In this document: positions 1 to 25,804 of the stretch, in pieces | How the letters are laid out: each line of letters begins with the position of its first letter | Position numbering within the stretch: the stretch's first letter is position 1 | Virus record (IMG/VR): IMGVR_UViG_2547132272_000023 | Direction: 5' to 3' (one strand) | DNA length: 26,093 nt | Source of the DNA: a virus | Taxonomy: Duplodnaviria > Heunggongvirae > Uroviricota > Caudoviricetes | Translations under genes and position numbers: made by a program | Notes under the pieces: generated by a model | Seen by the model: only the letters and a program-made list of their open reading frames with translations | What the model was told of the DNA's origin: nothing | Database searches by the model: none

Positions 1-1410
1 ATGTCTTTTCTTGATATAAAAAAAATGAGTAAAGAGAGGTTTAATGCTTTTGTTGATTGGACCAGAATGCCAAATACTGAACTTTTAGGTTATGAGTTTG
101 AGTGGTACTGTAGTCCGAGAGAGTTCCTGCTAGGGGCACTATTATTGGATCAAATCGATGAAGATTATAGCGGTATTGTTTTAGCAAGAGACTTAAGTGG
201 GAGATATAGATGTATTGACCTATTTACTAGTGTTTCAGAAATGAATTCTGCACGAGCAAAACTAAAGAAATTAATGCGGAAGCATACTAAATTAAACGTA
301 AAAGTATTTCCACAAGGTGATGAAACTTATAAAGCAATGGATTTATTCACACCTATAGTTACACTAGATAAACTTCATCATCATTTTTCATTATTTGGTA
401 AATACGCGAACTGGTCGCCTGCAACAGGGATAATCAAGGAAATGATGAATCATTTTGAGGATGTCGACGGGAATTTTATAGAGCAGTTTCAGACAACAGG
501 TTTTGATGCCCGGCTATGGGAGTTATATCTTTTCGCATATTTACGAGAGGAACACTTTTGGCTAGATAGGCAGTTTAATGCCCCTGATTATGTGGCACGT
601 AAGTATGGTAATACTATTTGCATTGAAGCTGTAACGGTTAATCCAACAGGGAATGATATTAATCAATCATCTGAAATGCTATCTGAACCTAAAAGTAAGG
701 AAGAATTGCTAGAGAAAATAGAGAATTATATGCCGATTAAATTTGGAAGTTCTCTCTATTCTAAACTGAAAAAGAAAACTCGATACTGGGATCTAGAACA
801 TGTTAAGGGGAATCCTTTAATTTTCGCAATTGCTGATTTTCATGAACCAAACTCTATGATTTGGTCCCATAGTGCACTTTGGCAGTATCTTTATGGTATT
901 CGCTATGAGCATGTTAAATCTGAAGATGGATGTTACAGTTTAGCAACTAAGAAAATTATATCGCATCAATTTGAGAAAAAGGAAATTCCTTCAGGCTTTT
1001 TCTTCTTGGATGAGTCTGAAAATATTTCGGCCGTCCTTAGTTCTAATAGTGGTACTATATCGAAGTTTAATCGGATGGGAAAACTGGCTGGTTTTGGAAG
1101 AAGTGACCTTAGATTATTTAGGAGTGGTTACTGCCATGATCATGACCCAGAGGCATTATATCCAGCAGCATTTAGTTTTGAAGTGAAAGAAGGCGATATT
1201 ACAGAAACATGGGCAGAAGGTTTAAATATGTATCATAATCCTAATGCTAAATATCCTGTAGATCCTGATTTATTTCCTTCAATAGCACATCATTTTCTTG
1301 AAAATGGAGAGGTTAAAAGTATAGTGCCTGACTTTCATCCGTATACATCTATTACCATAAATGTCTTAACTCAAAATAATAAAAAACAAAAAATCAGAGT
1401 AGATGAGTAA
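1..1410 (+). CDS. Hypothetical protein, AT-rich cargo gene at the P2 old/tin hotspot position; candidate accessory/defence function
   Basis: Uninterrupted 469-codon ORF, visibly AT-rich against the GC-rich phage backbone, convergent with portal gene Q. No Walker A, HNH, zinc-finger or transmembrane signature recognised by eye. ATG lies exactly at window position 1, so the true start may be upstream. Confidence 0.55.
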   Translation: MSFLDIKKMSKERFNAFVDWTRMPNTELLGYEFEWYCSPREFLLGALLLDQIDEDYSGIVLARDLSGRYRCIDLFTSVSEMNSARAKLKKLMRKHTKLNVKVFPQGDETYKAMDLFTPIVTLDKLHHHFSLFGKYANWSPATGIIKEMMNHFEDVDGNFIEQFQTTGFDARLWELYLFAYLREEHFWLDRQFNAPDYVARKYGNTICIEAVTVNPTGNDINQSSEMLSEPKSKEELLEKIENYMPIKFGSSLYSKLKKKTRYWDLEHVKGNPLIFAIADFHEPNSMIWSHSALWQYLYGIRYEHVKSEDGCYSLATKKIISHQFEKKEIPSGFFFLDESENISAVLSSNSGTISKFNRMGKLAGFGRSDLRLFRSGYCHDHDPEALYPAAFSFEVKEGDITETWAEGLNMYHNPNAKYPVDPDLFPSIAHHFLENGEVKSIVPDFHPYTSITINVLTQNNKKQKIRVDE

Positions 1411-14724: not shown

Positions 14725-14809
14725 CTGAGAATTAAATGGTTAGTATCATCCTCCCCCACACTGCCTATATGGTATGAATACGAGGGGGAGGCTGTTTGTT
14801 GTCTGTTTC

Positions 14810-14818
14810 TGTGATAAT
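14810..14818 (+). promoter_or_regulatory. Putative extended -10 element (TGtGATAAT) for the acyltransferase cargo gene
   Basis: TG motif one base upstream of a GATAAT hexamer, about 35 bp upstream of ATG 14852; no good -35 hexamer. Confidence 0.3.
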
Positions 14819-14851
14819 ATTAGATTCCCGTTTTTTAATAAAAAAATCAAT

Positions 14852-15862
14852 ATGAAAGAGAATAAAATACGTTCTGCCGATGGCGTGAGAGGTTTCGCTT
14901 TGATGATTGTTGTGGTGATGCATTCTACGGGACTATTCTTTCCCTCACTTCATGATCATCTCGGAGGTACGGGGCAGCCCGGTGTTTGGTTGTTTTTTGT
15001 TCTTAGCGCCTTTTTGTTGACACATAAATTTATTAATTCTGGTTTTTCGTTTTTGAATGTGTTGAGTTATCTTTTAGGGCGAACAATAAGGATATTACCG
15101 ATTTTTTATATTGCAGTATTAATTTATTACCTTATGGGATTTTATGATTTAGAGAAAATGAAATCGATAATTTCATTTGATAGTACTTACATCCATCTCT
15201 GGACTATTCCGATAGAATTCAAGTTTTACTTTTTGTTGCCGATTGTGGTTTATCTCGCATCTAGTATCCAGAAAGTTGCAGGTAGAAAATATTCTTTGTT
15301 GTTTTTGATATTGTTAACCTTAGCGTTCGCTTTTATATACCCTTATACGGATGACGAAATCAACGGTAGGCTACCGTATTACATTCCTGTTTTTATGTAT
15401 GGAATTATAATTGCGTTTATGTATAACTATTTTCAAATTAAAATATCATCTCTCGTTAGTGATGGGGTGTCAATTGCGATTATATTAATATTTATAATGT
15501 TGACCCCTCCTTTTCAGGGGGCTAATGGTTGGCTGGGTAATAAATTTGTGGTATTGGGGCCATTTATTGCTCTCTTTGTATATCTGCAAGTAAATTCCAG
15601 TGGGTATGTAAGCGCGGTTTTATCTTCAAAAATCATGGCGGATTTGGGGAAATATAGTTTTTCAATTTATTTGTTTCATATAATGATAATTTTTATTGTT
15701 TATCCTAAATTTTTGGATAATGTTACTGCATACTTAGTTACTATAGCTTTATGTATTGGCGGTGGGGCTATTGCCTATCATTGCATTGAATCTCCCTTGG
15801 AATCGTTCAGACATAAGCTTATGAAAAGAATAACGCAGGCTTATCAGAATCAAAATATTTAA
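14852..15862 (+). CDS. Acyltransferase-3 family integral membrane protein; putative O-antigen/surface-polysaccharide acetyltransferase (lysogenic conversion cargo at the Z/fun position)
   Basis: N-terminus KIRSADGVRGFALMIVVVMH fits the conserved R...G.RG.A......H start of acyltransferase-3 proteins; about ten hydrophobic helices; strongly AT-rich; located between G and FI. Start placed at ATG 14852 rather than the track start 14774. Confidence 0.7.
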   Translation: MKENKIRSADGVRGFALMIVVVMHSTGLFFPSLHDHLGGTGQPGVWLFFVLSAFLLTHKFINSGFSFLNVLSYLLGRTIRILPIFYIAVLIYYLMGFYDLEKMKSIISFDSTYIHLWTIPIEFKFYFLLPIVVYLASSIQKVAGRKYSLLFLILLTLAFAFIYPYTDDEINGRLPYYIPVFMYGIIIAFMYNYFQIKISSLVSDGVSIAIILIFIMLTPPFQGANGWLGNKFVVLGPFIALFVYLQVNSSGYVSAVLSSKIMADLGKYSFSIYLFHIMIIFIVYPKFLDNVTAYLVTIALCIGGGAIAYHCIESPLESFRHKLMKRITQAYQNQNI

Positions 15863-16090: not shown

Positions 16091-17263
16091 ATGGCTCAGG
16101 ATTACCACCACGGGGTGCGCGTTGTTGAAGTCAACGAAGGCACCCGATCCATTACCACGGTGAGCACCGCCATCGTGGGTATGGTCTGCACGGGCGATGA
16201 TGCCGATGCAAAAATGTTTCCTCTTAATAAACCTGTACTGATCACTGACGTGCTGACTGCCAGCGGTAAAGCGGGTGAGTCCGGCACGCTGGCCCGTTCG
16301 CTGGATGCCATCGCTGACCAGGCAAAACCCGTGACCGTTGTTGTGCGTGTGCCGCAGGGTGAAACGGAAGAAGAAACCACGACCAATATCATCGGCGCAG
16401 TGACTGCTGAAGGTAAAAAAACAGGCATGAAAGCCCTGTTATCTGCCCAGACACAGCTCGGCGTTAAACCGCGCATTCTCGGCGTGCCAGGTCACGATAA
16501 CAAAGCCGTTGCTACTGAGTTGCTGAGTGTGGCGCAAAGCCTGCGTGGGTTTGCCTACCTGTCAGCGTATGGCTGCAAGACGGTACAGGAGGCGATCACT
16601 TACCGTGAAAATTTCAGCCAGCGCGAAGGAATGCTGATCTGGCCTGACTTTACTGGCTGGGACACGGTGCTGAATGCCGAAGCAACGGCATATGCCACCG
16701 CCCGTGCGCTTGGTCTGCGTGCCAAAATTGATGAGCAGACCGGGTGGCACAAAAGCCTGTCCAACGTGGGCGTGAACGGTGTCACCGGAATTTCTGCAGA
16801 TGTGTTCTGGGATCTGCAGGACCCGGCAACCGATGCAGGTCTGCTGAACCAGAACGACGTCACCACACTTGTGCGTAAAGACGGTTTCCGCTTCTGGGGT
16901 TCCCGCTGCCTGAGTGATGACCCGCTCTTTGCCTTCGAAAACTACACCCGCACGGCGCAGGTGCTGATGGACACGATGGCAGAAGCACACATGTGGGCGG
17001 TGGATAAACCGCTTAACCCGTCGCTGGCCCGCGACATTATCGAAGGTATCCGCGCCAAAATGCGCAGCCTGGTCAGTCAAGGCTATCTCATTGGTGGTGA
17101 TTGCTGGCTGGATGAGTCGGTGAACGACAAAGACACGCTGAAAGCCGGAAAACTCACCATCGACTATGACTACACGCCAGTGCCGCCACTTGAAAATCTG
17201 ATGCTGCGCCAGCGCATCACCGATCAGTACCTGGTGAATTTTGCCAGCCAGGTCAGCGCGTAA
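16091..17263 (+). CDS. FI: Contractile tail sheath protein (P2 gpFI-like)
   Basis: 390 aa (P2 FI about 396 aa); N-terminus [32 protein letters not shown] closely resembles the P2 FI N-terminus as recalled. Confidence 0.9.
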
Positions 17264-17272
17264 GGGGACAAC

Positions 17273-17788
17273 ATGGCTTTACCACGCAAATTAAAACACC
17301 TGAACCTGTTTAACGACGGGAACAACTGGCAGGGGATCGTTGAGTCGCTGACGCTGCCGAAATTCACCCGCAAATATGAGAAGTATCGCGGTGGCGGAAT
17401 GCCGGGGGCGGTGGATGTGGATCTGGGACTGGATGACAGTGCACTGGATACAGAATTTTCCATTGGTGGTACTGAACTGCTGCTGTTTAAGCAGATGGGC
17501 AAAGCCACGGTGGATGGCATCCAGCTGCGCTTTACCGGCTCTATCCAGCGTGACGATACCGGGGAAGTGCAGGCTGTGGAGCTTGTGGTGCGTGGACGTC
17601 ACAAAGAAGTGGATTCCGGCGAGTGGAAGACGGGCGAAAGCAACACCACCAAAGTGACCAGTACCAACAGCTACGCGAAGCTGACCATCAATGGTGAGGT
17701 GCTCTATGAAGTGGACCTTATCAACATGGTGGAAATTGTGGACGGTGTAGACCTGATGGAAGCGCACCGCAACGCCCTCGGCCTCTGA
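17273..17788 (+). CDS. FII: Tail tube protein (P2 gpFII-like)
   Basis: 171 aa (P2 FII about 172 aa), immediately after the sheath gene. Confidence 0.9.
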   Translation: MALPRKLKHLNLFNDGNNWQGIVESLTLPKFTRKYEKYRGGGMPGAVDVDLGLDDSALDTEFSIGGTELLLFKQMGKATVDGIQLRFTGSIQRDDTGEVQAVELVVRGRHKEVDSGEWKTGESNTTKVTSTNSYAKLTINGEVLYEVDLINMVEIVDGVDLMEAHRNALGL

Positions 17789-17842: not shown

Positions 17843-18145
17843 ATGAGCGATAAGCAGACTGAAAAGACCATTCAACTGGATACCCCTATCAAGCGCGGTA
17901 AAACAGAAATTACCGAAATTGTGCTGCGTAAACCGCAGTCCGGTGCGCTGCGCGGTACACGCCTGCAGGCCATTATGGATATGGATGTGAACGCGATGAT
18001 GACCGTGATCCCCCGCATCTCCAGTCCGGTACTGACTGCACAGGAAATTGCAGAGATGGACCCGGCAGATCTCACTGCCATGTCGGTTGAGGTTGTCACT
18101 TTTTTGTTGAAGAAGTCGGTGCTTGCCGGTTTACCGACAGCCTGA
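17843..18145 (+). CDS. E: Tail assembly chaperone (P2 gpE-like)
   Basis: 100-aa ORF between tube and tape-measure genes; contains the T_TTT_TTG slip site near its 3' end. Confidence 0.75.
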   Translation: MSDKQTEKTIQLDTPIKRGKTEITEIVLRKPQSGALRGTRLQAIMDMDVNAMMTVIPRISSPVLTAQEIAEMDPADLTAMSVEVVTFLLKKSVLAGLPTA

Positions 18146-18279
18146 CGGTTGACGATCTGGTGGCAGATATCGCCACCATTTTTCACTGGCCGCCATCCGT
18201 TACTGACGTTATGCCGCTGACCGAAGTGCTGGAATGGCGGTATAAAGCGATTCAGAGAAGCGGGGCCAACGATGAGTAA
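17843..18279 (+). CDS. E+E': Tail assembly chaperone frameshift product (E+E'), made by -1 programmed ribosomal frameshifting at 18100-18106
   Basis: Heptamer T_TTT_TTG at 18100-18106 in the E frame; the -1 frame is open from 18106 to TAA at 18277-18279, overlapping the T start codon. Confidence 0.6.
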
Positions 18280-21200
18280 TAATAACCTGCGGCTGCAGGT
18301 CATTCTTAATGCGGTTGACAAACTCACCCGCCCATTCCGTGCTGCACAGGCCAGTTCGAAAGAGCTGGCTGGCGCAATCAGAAACTCCCGTGACGCATTA
18401 AAGCAACTCAATCAGGCGGGTAACAGCCTGGAAAAATTTCGCAAGCTGCAGGCCGATAACAAGAAGTTAGGCGACAGGCTGAACTATGCCAGACAGAAGG
18501 CTAATTTGCTTAGCTCTGAGCTGGAGGCGATGGAACAACCATCACAACGGCACCTTGTGGCTTTAGGTCGGCAAACGCTGGCAGTCCAACGCCTGGAAGA
18601 ACAACAAAAATATTTGCAGAAGCAAACGGCGCTTGTGCGTGCAGAACTGTACCGGGCGGGAATTTCTGCGAAAGATGATGCGGGAGCAACTGCCCGTTTA
18701 GCCCGTGAAACATCACGTTATAACCAGGAATTGTCGAAACAGGAGGCGCGGCTGAAGCGACTGGGTGAAGCTCAGCGCAGGATGAATGCGGCGCGTGCCA
18801 GTTATGCCCGTTCGCTGGAGGTGCGCGATCGTATTGCAGGAGCCGGAGCCACTACCACGGCTGCAGGGCTGGCAATGGGGACGCCAGTGATGGCGGCAGT
18901 AAAAAGCTATACCAGCATGGAAGATGCCATGAAAGGTGTGGCAAAGCAGGTCAATGGTCTGCGTGACGATAATGGAAACCGTACTGCACGTTTTTATGAA
19001 ATGCAGGATGCCATCAAGGCTGCCAGCGAACAGCTGCCGATGGAAAACGGTGCGGTGGACTTCGCCGCACTGGTTGAAGGTGGGGCGCGCATGAACGTCG
19101 CAAACCCTGACGACAGCTGGGAAGACCAGAAACGTGACCTGCTGGCCTTCGCCAGCACAGCAGCAAAGGCGGCAACAGCCTTTGAGCTGCCAGCGGATGA
19201 ACTGTCAGAAAGTCTGGGGAAAATCGCTCAGCTCTACAAAATCCCTACCCGCAATATTGAACAGCTCGGTGATGCGCTGAACTATCTGGATGATAACGCC
19301 ATGTCGAAAGGGGCGGACATCATTGATGTGATGCAACGCCTGGGCGGTGTGGCTGACCGTCTGGATTATCGTAAAGCGGCGGCGCTGGGTTCCACCTTCC
19401 TGACACTGGGCGCTGCGCCGGAGGTTGCAGCCAGTGCAGCAAACGCGATGGTGCGTGAATTGTCCATTGCCACCATGCAGAGCAAGAGTTTCTTTGAAGG
19501 GATGAATCTGCTGAAACTCAATCCTGAAGTGATTGAAAAGCAGATGACGAAGGATGCGATGGGAACTATCCAGCGTGTGCTGGAGAAGGTGAACGCACTG
19601 CCGCAGGACAAGCGTCTGTCTGCCATGACTATGTTGTTTGGTAAAGAGTTTGGCGATGACGCGGCGAAACTGGCAAACAACCTGCCGGAACTACAGCGCC
19701 AGCTAAAACTGACAGCGGGCAATGATGCGCTCGGCTCCATGCAGAAAGAATCCGACATTAACAAGGATTCACTTTCTGCGCAGTGGTTGCTGGTCAAAAC
19801 CACTGCACAGAATACCTTCAGCAGCCTGGGCGAAACGCTGCGCCAGCCGCTGATGGATATTCTGTACACGGTGAAAAGCATCACGGGGGCGTTGCGCCGC
19901 TGGGTGGAAGCTAACCCGGAACTGATAGGCACACTGATGAAAGTAGCGGCTGTTGTGGCTGCGGTTACCCTAGGCCTCGGCACCTTAGCGGTGGCGCTGG
20001 CTGCAGTGCTGGGGCCGCTGGCAGTCATCCGTCTGGGATTCTCTGTGCTGGGTATCAAAACGTTACCTTCCGTTACGGCAGCAGTAACACGAACCAGCAG
20101 CGCGTTGTCCTGGTTAGCTGGCACTCCACTGGCACTGCTGCGACGCGGGCTTGCTTCATCGGGCAACGCAGCGGGTTTACTTACTGCGCCGTTGTCGTCT
20201 TTGCGCCGCACGGCATCACTGACGGGGAATGTCCTGAAAACTGTAGCAGGTGTGCCGGTTGCACTGTTGCGGTCTGGATTATCCGGTTTACGTGCTGTTG
20301 CTGTGATGTTTATGAATCCACTGGCAGCACTACGCGGTGGACTGGCTGCCGCAGGCGCGGTGCTGCGAGTACTGGCATCCGGTCCGCTGGCGATGCTGCG
20401 CGTTGCCCTGTATGCCATATCTGGTCTGTTAGGTGCTCTGCTCAGTCCGATAGGTCTTGTGGTTACTGCACTGGCGGGCGTGGCGCTGGTTGTCTGGAAA
20501 TACTGGCAACCCATCACCGCATTTCTCGCTGGTGTGGTGGAAGGATTCAAAGCGGCGGCAGGTCCCATCAGTGCAGCATTCGAACCACTTAAGCCTGTGT
20601 TTCAGTGGATTGGCGACAAAGTACAGGCGCTGTGGGGCTGGTTTACTGATCTGCTGACGCCCGTTAAGTCGACCTCTGCCGAACTGCAGAGTGCAGCGGC
20701 AATGGGGCGGCGATTCGGAGAGGCACTGGCGGAAGGGCTGAATATGGTCATGCATCCGCTGGACTCCCTGAAATCCGGCGTTTCCTGGTTGCTGGAGAAA
20801 CTCGGCATTGTCAGTAAAGAGGCTGCAAAAGCGAAACTGCCGGAAAGCGTGACGCGTCAGCAACCTGCGACGGTGAATGCAGACGGTAAAGTGATAATGC
20901 CATCGGGTGGTTTTCCGTCATGGGGATATGGCTTTGCGGGGATGTATGACAGCGGCGGGTATATCCCGCGCGGGCAGTTCGGCATTGTCGGTGAAAACGG
21001 GCCGGAAATTGTCAACGGTCCGGCAAACGTGACCAGCCGGAGAAATACCGCTGCACTGGCTGCGGTTGTCGCCGGAATGATGGGCGTTGCTGCCGCGCCA
21101 GCAGAGCTTCCACCGTTGCATCCTTTGGCACTTCCCGCGAAAGGCGGTGAAGCGATGGTGAGTCGCGCAGCTGCTGTGCCGCCCGTTCACCGGATTGAGG

Positions 21201-21349
21201 CACCGACGCAGATCATCATCCAGACGCAGCCAGGACAAAGTGCGCAGGATATTGCGCGGGAGGTGGCACGCCAGCTTGATGAACGTGAACGCAGGCTGAA
21301 GGCAAAAGCCAGGAGTAACTACAGCGATCAGGGGGGATACGACGCATGA
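18272..21349 (+). CDS. T: Tail tape measure protein (P2 gpT-like)
   Basis: 1025 aa; coiled-coil-rich N-terminal part, hydrophobic Ala/Leu/Gly-rich central segment; position after E/E'. Confidence 0.85.
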   Translation: MSNNNLRLQVILNAVDKLTRPFRAAQASSKELAGAIRNSRDALKQLNQAGNSLEKFRKLQADNKKLGDRLNYARQKANLLSSELEAMEQPSQRHLVALGRQTLAVQRLEEQQKYLQKQTALVRAELYRAGISAKDDAGATARLARETSRYNQELSKQEARLKRLGEAQRRMNAARASYARSLEVRDRIAGAGATTTAAGLAMGTPVMAAVKSYTSMEDAMKGVAKQVNGLRDDNGNRTARFYEMQDAIKAASEQLPMENGAVDFAALVEGGARMNVANPDDSWEDQKRDLLAFASTAAKAATAFELPADELSESLGKIAQLYKIPTRNIEQLGDALNYLDDNAMSKGADIIDVMQRLGGVADRLDYRKAAALGSTFLTLGAAPEVAASAANAMVRELSIATMQSKSFFEGMNLLKLNPEVIEKQMTKDAMGTIQRVLEKVNALPQDKRLSAMTMLFGKEFGDDAAKLANNLPELQRQLKLTAGNDALGSMQKESDINKDSLSAQWLLVKTTAQNTFSSLGETLRQPLMDILYTVKSITGALRRWVEANPELIGTLMKVAAVVAAVTLGLGTLAVALAAVLGPLAVIRLGFSVLGIKTLPSVTAAVTRTSSALSWLAGTPLALLRRGLASSGNAAGLLTAPLSSLRRTASLTGNVLKTVAGVPVALLRSGLSGLRAVAVMFMNPLAALRGGLAAAGAVLRVLASGPLAMLRVALYAISGLLGALLSPIGLVVTALAGVALVVWKYWQPITAFLAGVVEGFKAAAGPISAAFEPLKPVFQWIGDKVQALWGWFTDLLTPVKSTSAELQSAAAMGRRFGEALAEGLNMVMHPLDSLKSGVSWLLEKLGIVSKEAAKAKLPESVTRQQPATVNADGKVIMPSGGFPSWGYGFAGMYDSGGYIPRGQFGIVGENGPEIVNGPANVTSRRNTAALAAVVAGMMGVAAAPAELPPLHPLALPAKGGEAMVSRAAAVPPVHRIEAPTQIIIQTQPGQSAQDIAREVARQLDERERRLKAKARSNYSDQGGYDA

Positions 21350-23018: not shown

Positions 23019-23237
23019 ATGATGATTTGCCCACTGTGTGGAAGTGCCGCCCATACTCGCAGCAGTTTTCAGGTATCTTCATTGACCAAAGAGCGTTACA
23101 ACCAGTGCCAGAACATTAACTGCAGCCATACTTTTGTTACCCATGAAACTTTTGTTCGTTCGATTGCAACGCCAAAAGAGTCAAATCCGGTTCAGCCGCA
23201 TCCAATGAAATCAGGACAGGTGGCGCTCTCTCTTTGA
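23019..23237 (+). CDS. ogr: Zinc-finger late transcription activator (P2 Ogr-like)
   Basis: ATG 23019 with GGGGAGA upstream gives 72 aa, the P2 Ogr length; Cys4 motif CPLCG-X22-CQNINC near the N-terminus. Confidence 0.8.
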   Translation: MMICPLCGSAAHTRSSFQVSSLTKERYNQCQNINCSHTFVTHETFVRSIATPKESNPVQPHPMKSGQVALSL

Positions 23238-23317
23238 CGCTGCCGCCATTTTGTCGCCATCGTTAAAAAACAGTGCTTCTAACATCATGATTTTAAACAG
23301 CTTAAATTTCAGGCAAC

Positions 23318-23360
23318 AAAAAACCCATCAACCTTGAACCGAAATGGCGGGGTTGATGGG
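23318..23360 (-). terminator. Rho-independent terminator of ybjL (hairpin plus U-tract on the minus strand)
   Basis: CCCATCAACC (23324-23333) pairs with GGTTGATGGG (23351-23360); on the minus strand the hairpin is followed by TTTTTTGT. The 17-nt loop is rather large. Confidence 0.4.
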
Positions 23361-23472
23361 CTCCACAAAATGGGGACATCAAAGAAAAGCAGTGGCACTA
23401 ATTAAGACTGATGCCCCGAGGAAAAGTTCTGCGGTTGTACAAAAAAATTTCATTTTTGGGGCAACTTCAGTT

Positions 23473-25158
23473 TTATCCGAGTCCTGGCCATACCATTACG
23501 ATGATTGTCCCTGCCAGCGTCAGCAGTACGTTAGCTATTGCATAAGTGCCCGCATAACCTAAGGCCGGGATGTTGCTGCGCGCAGTGTCGCTGATGATCT
23601 CCATTGCCGGAGCACAAGTACGTGCGCCCATCATTGCACCGAATAACAGCGCGCGGTTCATGCGCAGCACATAAGCGCCAAACAGGAAGCAAATAACAAC
23701 GGGCACCAGGCTGACAATTAACCCGGCAATCAACATCTGACCGCCAATCGCACCCAGGCCGTTATTGATGCCACTACCGGCGCTTAAACCCACGCCCGCC
23801 ATAAATACCATCAAACCGAACTCTTTCACCATGCTTAACGCGCCCTGGGGAATATAGCCGAAGGTCGGGTGGTTCGCTCGCATAAAGCCCAGCATAATAC
23901 CAGCGAATAACAATCCGGCGGCGTTACCCATGCCGAAGCTGAATGTGCTGAACTGGAAGGTGATCATCCCGATCATCAGACCGATGACAAAGAACGCGCA
24001 GAATGCCAGTAGATCGGTAACCTGGCTGTGAATCGAGATAAAGCCGATGCGATCGGCGATGGTTTTCACGCGACGGGCATCGCCGCTCACCTGCAATACA
24101 TCGCCTTTATTAAGCACCACGTTATCGTCGATCGGCATTTCGATCTGGCTGCGGATGACGCGGTTAAGGAAACAACCGTGATCGGTCAGCTTCAGTTGTG
24201 CCAGGCGTTTACCGACAGCGTTATGGTTTTTGACGACCACCTCTTCAGTGACGATACGCATGTCGAGAAGATCTCGATCAAAAACTTCTTTACCGTTACG
24301 GAAGCTGGGATCGAGTCGGGCGTGGGCGTCGGGATATCCTACCAACGCTATTTCATCGCCCATCTGTAGCACGGCGTCACCATCCGGATTTGCCAGAATC
24401 CCGTTACGACGAATACGTTCAATGTAGCAACCGGTTTGTCGATAAATACCCAGTTCGCGCAAGTTTTTGCCATCGGCCCAGGCGACCAGTTCCGGCCCGA
24501 CGCGGTAGGCGCGAATGACCGGCAGATAGACTTTACGGCTGGCGTCGGTATCCAGACCCCGTTCACGAGCGATTTGTTGGGCGCTGGTTTGTAAGTCCTG
24601 ATGCTGCAACTTAGGCAAGTAACGCGCACCGACAATCAAACTCACCAGGCCAATCAAATAGGTTAATGCATACCCGAGGCTTAAATTATCCAGTGCCGCA
24701 GAGAGCTGCCCGCTTTCTATTCCTGAGTGGCGTAAGGTATCGCCCGCACCAACCAAAACCGGTGTTGATGTCATTGAACCAGCCAACATACCGGCCGTCA
24801 GGCCGATGTCCCAGCCAAACAACTTACCCAGTCCTAAGGCGATCAGCAGTGCACTACCGACCATTACCAGGGCTAACATTAGGTAATTTTTCCCATCGCG
24901 GAAAAAAATGGAAAAAAAGTTGGGTCCGGCTTCGACCCCGACGCAGAAAATAAACAGCATAAAGCCAAGATTAAGCGCGTCGGTGTTAATACTGAAATGT
25001 TGTTGACCTAATAACAGTGATACGACTAAAACGCCAATGGAATTACCCAGTTGGATTGAACCAAGTCGTAATTTTCCGAGACATAGTCCAAGCGCGAGGA
25101 CCACGAATAATAACAGAATGTAATTCCCATTTAACAATTCGGCGACGTTTATATTCAC
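23473..25158 (-). CDS. ybjL: Putative transporter of the AspT/YidE/YbjL family (host chromosomal gene)
   Basis: 561 aa, two hydrophobic transporter halves separated by a soluble central region; N-terminus [29 protein letters not shown] recognised as E. coli YbjL from memory; lies next to ybjM and grxA as in E. coli K-12. Confidence 0.8.
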
Positions 25159-25426: not shown

Positions 25427-25804
25427 GTGAAACATAAACAACATTGGGCGGGGGCAATTTGCTGTTTTGTCCTCTTTATTGTGGTGTGCCTTTTTCTGGC
25501 GACACATATGAAGGGAGCTTTTCGGGCTGCCGGGCACCCTGAAATCGGCTTACTGTTTTTCATTCTTCCTGGGGCTGTAGCCAGCTTTTTTTCGCGGCGT
25601 AGAGAAGTCCTTAAACCACTGTTTGGCGCAATGCTGGCAGCACCGTGTTCTATGTTAATTATGCGTCTGTTTTTTTCACCATCACGCTCATTCTGGCAGG
25701 AGCTGGCGTGGTTGTTGAGTGCCGTCTTCTGGTGTGCGCTGGGCGCATTATGTTTTTTGTTTATCAGTAGCTTGTTCAGGCCGCAACACAGAAAAAATCA
25801 ATAA
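25427..25804 (+). CDS. ybjM: Inner membrane protein YbjM (host)
   Basis: 125-aa hydrophobic protein between ybjL and grxA, the K-12 arrangement. Confidence 0.65.
   Translation: MKHKQHWAGAICCFVLFIVVCLFLATHMKGAFRAAGHPEIGLLFFILPGAVASFFSRRREVLKPLFGAMLAAPCSMLIMRLFFSPSRSFWQELAWLLSAVFWCALGALCFLFISSLFRPQHRKNQ

What the first reader, a model, noticed from the sequence alone, without database searches (positions are those of the whole stretch)
18100..18279. Programmed -1 frameshift site T_TTT_TTG giving the E+E' tail chaperone
The heptamer T_TTT_TTG sits at 18100-18106 in the E reading frame. The -1 frame is open from there for 57 more codons (FFVEEVGACRFTDSLTVDDLVADIATIFHWPPSVTDVMPLTEVLEWRYKAIQRSGANDE) and stops at 18277-18279, overlapping the tape-measure start. 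This is the conserved G/GT-type tail chaperone frameshift of phages with long tails and is not in the supplied ORF track because the extension has no start codon.
Basis: partly seen in the sequence, partly recalled or inferred. Interest (0 to 1): 0.4.

Follow-up and report, generated by a model that had tools for sequence, protein, structure and literature searches.

The report
Known P2-type tail chaperone frameshift

Summary
TTTTTTG lies at 18100-18106 in phase T_TTT_TTG of gene E (17843-18145). The -1 frame is open from there to TAA 18277-18279, and that stop overlaps the tape-measure ATG at 18272.

- E matches Pfam Phage_TAC_7 (1e-18).
- The -1 extension matches the whole Phage_P2_GpE model (4e-19).
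- The fused 145-aa product aligns without gaps across the junction with P2 E+E' (49% identity). P2 has the same heptamer in the same phase, annotated as a -1 shift.
- In 21 diverse P2-like phages an in-phase slippery heptamer is always present and the -1 frame is always open into the conserved E' domain.
- The codon before TTT encodes five different amino acids but always ends in T, so the nucleotide sequence itself is under selection.

I found no conserved downstream RNA structure. An upstream Shine-Dalgarno-like GAGG is no stronger than the encoded amino acids would give.

Two small corrections apply. The junction residue is Leu after a tandem slip and Phe only after a P-site slip. The extension does contain a GTG (18160) that RefSeq annotates as a 39-aa 'GpE family' protein.

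Verdict: already known, low interest.

The parts
17273..17788 (+). Tail tube gene (FII homologue), the upstream neighbour that defines the context
   Evidence: PF04985 Phage_tube 8.8e-60
17843..18145 (+). Gene E, the 0-frame product: a 100-aa tail assembly chaperone
   Evidence: ORF, translation. PF10109 Phage_TAC_7 1.1e-18 and phrog_103 1.3e-43. RefSeq names it 'phage tail assembly protein'.
18089..18092 (+). Shine-Dalgarno-like GAGG, 7 nt upstream of the heptamer. It is a candidate stimulator only and is not established.
   Evidence: Same spacing in SEN8, P2, 186 and others. It is enriched against locus background but not beyond what the encoded amino acids give (window p=0.52).
18100..18106 (+). 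Slippery heptamer T_TTT_TTG, the site of the -1 shift
   Evidence: Identical sequence and phase in P2. An in-phase heptamer is conserved in 21 of 21 diverse lineages and in 78 of 80 close relatives. Codon-level selection is shown.
18107..18145 (+). Dual-coding stretch: the last 13 codons of E in frame 0 and the linker of E+E' in frame -1
18106..18279 (+). E' extension read in the -1 frame: 57 codons plus TAA. The composite E+E' is 17843..18106 joined to 18106..18279, 145 aa.
   Evidence: PF06528 Phage_P2_GpE 4.4e-19 over the full model, phrog_1756 4.7e-23, 56% identity to P2 E'.
18160..18279 (+). The 39-aa GTG-initiated ORF that public records annotate as 'GpE family phage tail protein'. I consider it an annotation truncation of E+E'.
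   Evidence: It has the weakest anti-SD pairing of the operon's starts (-3.0 kcal/mol). The start codon is not conserved across lineages.
18272..21349 (+). Tape measure gene (T homologue). Its ATG overlaps the E' stop by 8 nt (ATGAGTAA).
   Evidence: PF10145 1.6e-18. The overlap is conserved in 11 of 19 lineages.

Best explanation
Genes E and E' of a P2-like (Elveevirus/Fels-2-type) prophage in an E. coli chromosome are decoded from one start codon, ATG 17843. Most ribosomes read straight through and stop at 18143-18145, giving the 100-aa chaperone E. A minority slip back one base on T_TTT_TTG (18100-18106). tRNA-Phe on UUU and tRNA-Leu on UUG re-pair with UUU_UUU, and reading continues with GUU in the -1 frame to TAA 18277-18279. 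This gives the 145-aa E+E', whose C-terminal 57 residues form the P2 GpE/E' domain.

By homology with P2 E/E+E', and by analogy with lambda G/GT, both proteins act as tail assembly chaperones. The shared E part holds the tape measure protein and the E' domain recruits the tail tube protein. The fixed low shifting rate sets their ratio.

Shown here: the sequence anatomy, the homology, and the conservation of the site and of the open -1 frame. Inferred: that the shift happens in this prophage, its efficiency, the junction residue (Leu or Phe) and the chaperone roles.
For: Anatomy and phase.

Family matches: E = PF10109, extension = PF06528 over the full model at 4.4e-19; PHROGs tail families.

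Comparison with P2: the P2 record annotates E+E' as a two-piece join with a -1 site at the same heptamer and phase. The fused product aligns with P2 E+E' at 49% identity over 139 aa with no gap across the junction.

Conservation:
- A tblastn of the fused protein finds 425 phage records. 374 of them cover at least 80% of it, and the rows listed show two pieces, meaning two frames.
- In 21 diverse lineages (enterobacteria, Burkholderia, Ralstonia, Pseudomonas, Halomonas, Vibrio, Acidovorax, Zymomonas, Mannheimia) an in-phase slippery heptamer is always present. It is T_TTT_TTG in 18, T_TTT_TTC in 1, T_TTT_TTT in 1 and G_GGA_AAG in 1. The -1 frame is always open from it into the conserved ...ADIAxIFHW... 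domain.
- The codon before TTT is ACT, GGT, CTT, TCT, CCT or AGT, encoding five amino acids and always ending in T. Given the amino acids, the slippery codon choice has probability 0.5-6% in 14 of 16 lineages. TTG is only 8% of Leu codons in this phage.

Literature and records: P2 shifts -1 at TTTTTTG to give the 91-aa E and 142-aa E+E'; E' lacks a ribosome binding site; no downstream hairpin is found (PMC3091744; PMC3931495). The records of phage 186, Fels-2, KS14 and Midge state the same frameshift.
Against: - There is no direct evidence of the product in this prophage.
- No stimulatory element could be demonstrated. RNAalifold finds no downstream consensus structure (0 pairs), the local fold is not exceptional (z = -0.8 and -1.6), and the upstream SD-like motif is explained by the coding sequence.
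- Close relatives are annotated with a separate 39-aa CDS rather than a join.
- I could not read the primary experimental paper (Christie et al. 2002, PMC135442). Its content is taken from secondary citations and from my own memory.
Confidence: 0.93

Rival explanations
1. E' is an independent small gene: a 39-aa protein initiated at GTG 18160, as annotated in RefSeq and GenBank ('GpE family phage tail protein'). No frameshift is involved.
For: A GTG is present at 18160. Many records annotate this CDS. PHROG 6416 is a 39-residue family built from such calls.
Against: - The residue at that position is V or M in some lineages but A, I, W or T in others, so it is not a start codon there (RS-AB1, Mannheimia, Vibrio, Acidovorax).
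- Anti-SD pairing upstream of the GTG is the weakest of seven starts in the operon (-3.0 kcal/mol).
- The -1 frame is open all the way back to the heptamer in 21 of 21 lineages, although the median open length of that frame in this window is 10 codons.
- Sequence upstream of the GTG (..SLTVDDL.. against P2 ..NLSVDDL..) is conserved in the -1 frame.
- Papers that cite the P2 study describe E' as an extension of E that lacks a ribosome binding site.
Confidence: 0.03
2. The longer protein arises mainly by transcriptional slippage. RNA polymerase adds an extra U on the T6 run, giving mRNAs in which E and E' are in one frame with an F-F-V junction. Ribosomal slippage is not the main route.
For: The site is a homopolymer run of T6, and T7 in some lineages (T7G in Smp131). 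Databases hold fused 145-aa proteins with the TFFVEEV junction expected from a T7 sequence, which shows that the run length is unstable at some level, or prone to sequencing error.
Against: - The run is kept in the exact phase X_XXY_YYZ in all lineages. Transcriptional slippage does not need that phase.
- Mannheimia phage replaces the run by G_GGA_AAG, a classical ribosomal heptamer that is not a homopolymer.
- From general knowledge, E. coli RNA polymerase slips appreciably only on runs of about 8-9 or more.
- The fused database proteins come from assemblies and are better explained as homopolymer errors.
Confidence: 0.04
3. A chance overlap: the heptamer and the open -1 frame have no function and no extended product matters.
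For: The bare heptamer is common in the window (13 copies). A 59-codon open -1 frame occurs at 4.4% of codons.
Against: The extension gives a full-length Pfam match at 4.4e-19, there is conservation across proteobacterial classes, and the nucleotide level shows codon selection.
Confidence: 0.005

Closest known systems
Bacteriophage P2 genes E and E+E' (programmed -1 frameshift in the FETUD tail operon; Christie et al. 2002, J Bacteriol 184:6522)
   Same: The heptamer T_TTT_TTG is identical and in the same phase, with 13 codons left in E here and 7 in P2. The gene order is the same (FI, FII, E/E', T, U, D). The 8-nt ATGAGTAA overlap of the E' stop with the T start is the same. The proteins are homologous: 49% identity over the fusion and 56% over the extension.
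   Different: E is 100 aa rather than 91 aa and the fusion is 145 aa rather than 142 aa. The host element belongs to a different genus-level lineage (Elveevirus/Felsduovirus-like). The codon before the slip is ACT (Thr), not GGT (Gly).
Phage lambda G/GT tail assembly chaperone frameshift (Levin, Hendrix and Casjens 1993; Xu, Hendrix and Duda 2004, 2013, 2014)
   Same: Both lie between the major tail and tape measure genes. [quoted passage not shown] Both give two proteins that share an N-terminus and are needed in a fixed ratio. Proposed roles: the common part binds the tape measure and the extension binds the tail tube protein (review PMC5009743).
   Different: There is no detectable sequence similarity. 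Lambda uses G_GGA_AAG, and among the P2-like phages sampled only the Mannheimia phage does. Lambda has a non-contractile tail. The 30:1 ratio is a lambda figure and cannot be carried over to this element.
E. coli dnaX -1 frameshift (A_AAA_AAG with an upstream SD-like element and a downstream hairpin)
   Same: It is a bacterial tandem-slippage -1 frameshift on a homopolymeric X_XXX_XXG heptamer. An SD-like GAGG lies upstream here too.
   Different: No conserved downstream hairpin is present here. The upstream SD-like motif is not supported beyond the coding constraint, and its 7-nt spacing is shorter than the 10 nt of dnaX (that spacing is from my own knowledge). In dnaX the shift truncates the product rather than extending it.

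Membership tests
P2-type E/E+E' tail assembly chaperone frameshift | The chaperone gene lies between the tail tube gene and the tape measure gene | tested here: met
   Phage_tube 17273-17788, E 17843-18145, PhageMin_Tail 18272-21349
P2-type E/E+E' tail assembly chaperone frameshift | The 0-frame product belongs to the E family of tail assembly chaperones (PF10109) | tested here: met
   1.1e-18, model positions 1-78 of 79
P2-type E/E+E' tail assembly chaperone frameshift | An in-phase slippery heptamer X_XXY_YYZ lies near the 3' end of E | tested here: met
   T_TTT_TTG at 18100-18106, 13 codons before the E stop, identical to P2
P2-type E/E+E' tail assembly chaperone frameshift | The -1 frame is open from the heptamer past the E stop, with no conserved start codon or ribosome binding site of its own | tested here: met
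   The frame is open from 18091 to 18279. The first start-type codon is GTG 18160, with weak SD pairing (-3.0) and no conservation as a start.
P2-type E/E+E' tail assembly chaperone frameshift | The extension is homologous to P2 E' (PF06528) | tested here: met
   4.4e-19, model positions 1-37 of 37; 56% identity to P2 E'
P2-type E/E+E' tail assembly chaperone frameshift | The heptamer and the two-frame arrangement are conserved in relatives | tested here: met
   21 of 21 diverse lineages, 78 of 80 close relatives, and 374 phage records with at least 80% coverage of the fused query
P2-type E/E+E' tail assembly chaperone frameshift | A frameshifted fusion protein is actually produced and is essential for tail assembly | not testable with these tools
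   This was shown for P2 only (cited). It needs mass spectrometry and genetics on this prophage.
dnaX-type stimulated -1 frameshift (SD-like element plus hairpin) | A downstream stimulatory RNA structure | tested here: not met
   RNAalifold predicts 0 pairs across 16 lineages. Window folds give z = -0.83 and -1.58. No Rfam hit in the region.
dnaX-type stimulated -1 frameshift (SD-like element plus hairpin) | An upstream SD-like element selected beyond the coding constraint | tested here: inconclusive
   GAGG is present 7 nt upstream and is enriched against locus background (median 0.06). The synonymous-recoding control gives window p=0.52 and median 0.21.

The most novel reading that the evidence does not exclude
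The site may carry regulatory layers that have not been described.
(a) The SD-like GAGG/AAGG sits at a fixed 7-nt distance upstream (10-13 nt in GC-rich lineages) and could tune the E:E+E' ratio by pairing with 16S rRNA.
(b) The conserved 8-nt overlap of the E' stop with the tape-measure start (ATGAGTAA) could couple part of tape-measure translation to the minority of ribosomes that have frameshifted, matching tape measure output to E+E'.
Neither is excluded by my tests. Neither is supported beyond the coding constraint or beyond ordinary phage gene packing.
Probability: 0.15. Interest if true: 0.3.

Novelty: already known. Interest (0 to 1): 0.1.

Why it matters
The value is mainly in annotation. 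The same locus occurs in about 1000 of 5426 complete E. coli genomes. RefSeq lists it there as two unrelated small CDSs: 'phage tail assembly protein' and a 39-aa 'GpE family phage tail protein'. The real second product is most likely the 145-aa fusion. Annotating the join correctly matters in three places:
- judging whether a P2-like prophage or tailocin cluster is intact;
- proteomic databases, because the junction peptide is absent from them;
- synthetic recoding, because synonymous changes to ACT TTT TTG would probably abolish tail assembly.

It adds nothing new to frameshifting biology.

Tried and rejected
1. Downstream stimulatory structure. Folding 18107-18200 and 18107-18145 gives energies within the range of shuffles. 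RNAalifold on 16 lineages predicts no pairs. A 7-bp hairpin at about 18158-18178 lies some 50 nt downstream, too far to act as a stimulator. This agrees with the published absence of hairpins in P2 and the Burkholderia phages.

2. Upstream SD-like stimulator. It looked promising against locus background. It did not survive an amino-acid-preserving synonymous recoding control: window p=0.52, and Fisher p=0.026 only under a false assumption of independence. I left it as inconclusive.

3. Rfam scan of the whole window. Nothing was found at the site; the only hit is RybB elsewhere.

4. Solved structures. A profile of 17 E+E' sequences found no relative in the PDB (best E=0.12). I did not run a structure prediction because only near-identical sequences were admissible for the alignment.

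5. NCBIfam has no model that matches the fusion.

6. The primary P2 paper could not be retrieved.

7. A second heptamer, G_GGG_GGA at 21331, leads into the frame of gene U. I considered it as a T-U fusion site and rejected that reading. It is the Shine-Dalgarno sequence of U (-10.1 kcal/mol), and T and U do not overlap in P2.

8. Fused 141-145-aa database proteins. Their junctions lie at several different positions (TFFVEEV, TFVEEV, KKSVLARFTDS), which fits scattered indel errors or variants and not an annotated slippage.

Full report
**Observation.** The window reads ...GTC ACT TTT TTG TTG AAG AAG TCG... around 18095-18118. The ORF starting at ATG 17843 and ending at TGA 18143-18145 encodes 100 residues. 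In its frame the heptamer TTTTTTG at 18100-18106 is phased T_TTT_TTG. The next gene, a 1025-aa ORF, starts at ATG 18272, so the -1 stop and that start overlap in ATGAGTAA. In the -1 frame the stretch is open from 18091. The first ATG/GTG/TTG codon in it is GTG 18160.

**Is it more than chance?** The bare heptamer is not special: there are 13 copies on both strands against 6.6 expected. I scanned 26 genes of the window (7819 codons) and found 24 in-phase X_XXY_YYZ heptamers. Only three lead into a -1 ORF that passes the 0-frame stop. One of those is the Shine-Dalgarno sequence of gene U inside the end of T. One lies two codons from the end of the host gene ybjM. The third is the E site. A -1 frame open for at least 59 codons is found at 4.4% of codons. 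Geometry alone would therefore be only suggestive, and the decisive evidence is homology and conservation.

**What it is.** Pfam assigns the neighbouring ORFs as follows:
- sheath, 16091-17263
- tube, 17273-17788
- E as Phage_TAC_7 (PF10109, 1.1e-18)
- tape measure, 18272-21349 (PhageMin_Tail)
- GpU
- GPD

The 59-residue -1 peptide on its own matches the complete Phage_P2_GpE model (PF06528, positions 1-37 of 37, 4.4e-19). PHROGs gives tail families for both parts. One family (phrog_1756, 4.7e-23) covers the whole extension from its first residue, not just the part after the GTG.

The P2 reference record annotates E+E' as a two-piece join with a 'site of -1 translational frameshift' directly after the same heptamer. 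The P2 sequence reads GGT TTT TTG TCG, the same heptamer in the same phase. I built the fusion by the tandem-slip rule: 17843..18106 joined to 18106..18279, 145 aa. It aligns with P2 E+E' over 139 residues at 49% identity with no gap, straight through the junction (VVTFLVEEVGA against VVGFLVAELGA). The extension alone is 56% identical.

**Conservation.** A tblastn search with the fused protein finds 425 phage records. In 374 of them one place covers at least 80% of the query, and the rows listed show two pieces, which means two reading frames. I fetched 21 loci spanning enterobacterial, Burkholderia, Ralstonia, Pseudomonas, Halomonas, Vibrio, Acidovorax, Zymomonas and Mannheimia phages and analysed them with one script.
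- Every locus has an in-phase slippery heptamer a few codons before the E stop. It is T_TTT_TTG in 18, T_TTT_TTC in Vibrio MAR, T_TTT_TTT in the Zymomonas element and G_GGA_AAG in the Mannheimia phage.
- In every locus the -1 frame is open from the heptamer into the conserved ..(D/E)DxxADIAxIFHWxP..ELxxWRExA.. domain.
- Among 80 close relatives from IMG/VR (43 distinct sequences), 78 keep T_TTT_TTG, one has T_TTT_TTA and one has a longer T run.

The strongest single argument is at the codon level. The codon before TTT is ACT, GGT, CTT, TCT, CCT or AGT in different lineages. These encode five different amino acids but always end in T. Given the encoded amino acids and local codon usage, the slippery choice has a probability of 0.5-6% in 14 of 16 lineages, including hosts with 62-67% G+C. 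In this phage TTG is only 8% of leucine codons. Selection is therefore acting on the nucleotide string, not on the protein.

**Mechanism.** The best-supported reading is a ribosomal tandem -1 slip. Peptidyl-tRNA-Phe on UUU and aminoacyl-tRNA-Leu on UUG re-pair with UUU_UUU, and decoding resumes at GUU. This yields ...VVTF-L-VEEVG... It would be the true junction only if the P-site tRNA slipped alone before the rare UUG codon was filled, or if the mRNA carried an extra U. The P2 record and the Burkholderia phage paper place the shift after the terminal G, which gives F-L-V.

I found no stimulatory element:
- The 94-nt and 39-nt downstream folds are within the range of shuffles (z = -1.58 and -0.83).
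- RNAalifold on 16 lineages predicts no pair.
- Rfam has nothing at the site.
- This agrees with the published statement that P2 and its Burkholderia relatives lack such hairpins.

A Shine-Dalgarno-like GAGG lies 7 nt upstream at 18089-18092, with the same spacing in SEN8, P2, 186 and others. It is stronger than most equal-sized stretches of the loci (median 0.06). When the eight upstream codons are recoded synonymously, equally strong sites arise often (window p=0.52, median 0.21). The motif may simply follow from the conserved (E/K)-V-(V/I) residues, so I leave it as inconclusive.

The functional part is inference from P2 genetics and from lambda G/GT (review PMC5009743): E and E+E' act as chaperones of the tape measure protein, E' recruits the tube protein, and both are needed in a set ratio. 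From my memory of the abstract of Christie et al. 2002, E' is essential and the P2 shift occurs at about 10%. I could not open that paper to check this.

**Rivals.**

Independent initiation at GTG 18160 is what most automated annotation implies. Cartapus, CP019275, SEN8 and RefSeq E. coli D9 all list a 120-nt CDS named 'GpE family phage tail protein'. Four things argue against it:
- that codon position is A, I, W or T in several lineages;
- its anti-SD pairing is the weakest of seven operon starts;
- the frame stays open upstream of it in all lineages, although the median open run of that frame in this window is 10 codons;
- the residues upstream of it are conserved with P2.

Transcriptional slippage on the T run cannot be excluded as a minor contributor. 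However, the invariant codon phase and the replacement by G_GGA_AAG in Mannheimia phage point to the ribosome.

Pure chance is excluded.

**Comparison with the known, and novelty.** This is the P2 E/E+E' frameshift itself, in a related prophage lineage. All sequence-level defining features were tested and met. Only production of the protein and its necessity are untestable here. The window is an E. coli chromosomal prophage. The 701-nt region is 100% identical to strains D9 and D4, and about 1000 of 5426 complete genomes carry it at 80% identity or more. The finding is correct, already known and of low interest. Its practical value is as an annotation correction.

Noticed in passing
window 23315-23393 (-), with 23473-25158 (-) and 25427-25804 (+): A complete RybB sRNA gene (RF00110, 105 bits, model positions 1-79 of 79) lies directly after the prophage's right end (ogr at about 23019-23237). 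It is followed by the host genes ybjL (aspartate:alanine antiporter, NF003440) and ybjM. The P2-like prophage therefore appears to be inserted at the 3' end of rybB. I did not look for the att repeat.
   Followed up: partly
window 1-1410 (+): The 469-aa ORF upstream of the portal gene, at the position of P2's old/tin cargo locus, matches the PADLOC anti-phage defence protein PD-T7-1 (3.5e-196). It has no Pfam or NCBIfam hit. E. coli D9 carries a different gene (a PIN-domain protein) at this position, so this is a variable defence hotspot.
   Followed up: partly
window 14774-15862 (+): The 362-aa ORF between the tail-fibre assembly gene and the sheath gene, at the position of P2's Z/fun cargo locus, is an Acyl_transf_3 family acyltransferase (PF01757, 9e-27). 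It is probably an O-antigen-modifying lysogenic conversion gene. E. coli D9 instead has an invertible tail-fibre segment with a recombinase at this position.
   Followed up: partly
window 21331-21337 (+): An in-phase G_GGG_GGA heptamer lies 4 codons before the tape-measure stop, and its -1 frame is that of gene U (open for 166 codons). It is the Shine-Dalgarno sequence of U (AGGGGGGA, -10.1 kcal/mol) and so is most likely not a recoding site. T and U do not overlap in P2.
   Followed up: yes
window 18272-18279; loci L001-L005, L086-L101: The E' stop overlaps the tape-measure start by exactly 8 nt (ATGAGTAA or ATGAGTGA) in 11 of 19 lineages and by 4-23 nt in 5 more. There is a gap in 3. This would allow termination-reinitiation coupling between the frameshifted reading frame and tape-measure translation. 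That idea is untested.
   Followed up: partly
L006 around 1742; L043 at 1758; proteins P0056, P0064, P0022, P0017: The T run varies in length or sequence in public data. One IMG/VR relative has T8 where its nearest phage relative has T7, which fuses the frames. One has T_TTT_TTA. Several database proteins of 141-145 aa are in-frame E-E' fusions with junctions at different positions (TFFVEEV, TFVEEV, KKSVLARFTDS). These are probably homopolymer or indel assembly errors, but real fused variants are not excluded.
   Followed up: partly
L098 594-600 (Mannheimia phage vB_MhM_1127AP1): This P2-like phage has replaced the T-run heptamer by G_GGA_AAG, the heptamer used by phage lambda G/GT, at the equivalent place in its E gene. 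The -1 frame there is open into a normal E' domain. This is a natural swap of slippery sequence within one homologous family.
   Followed up: partly
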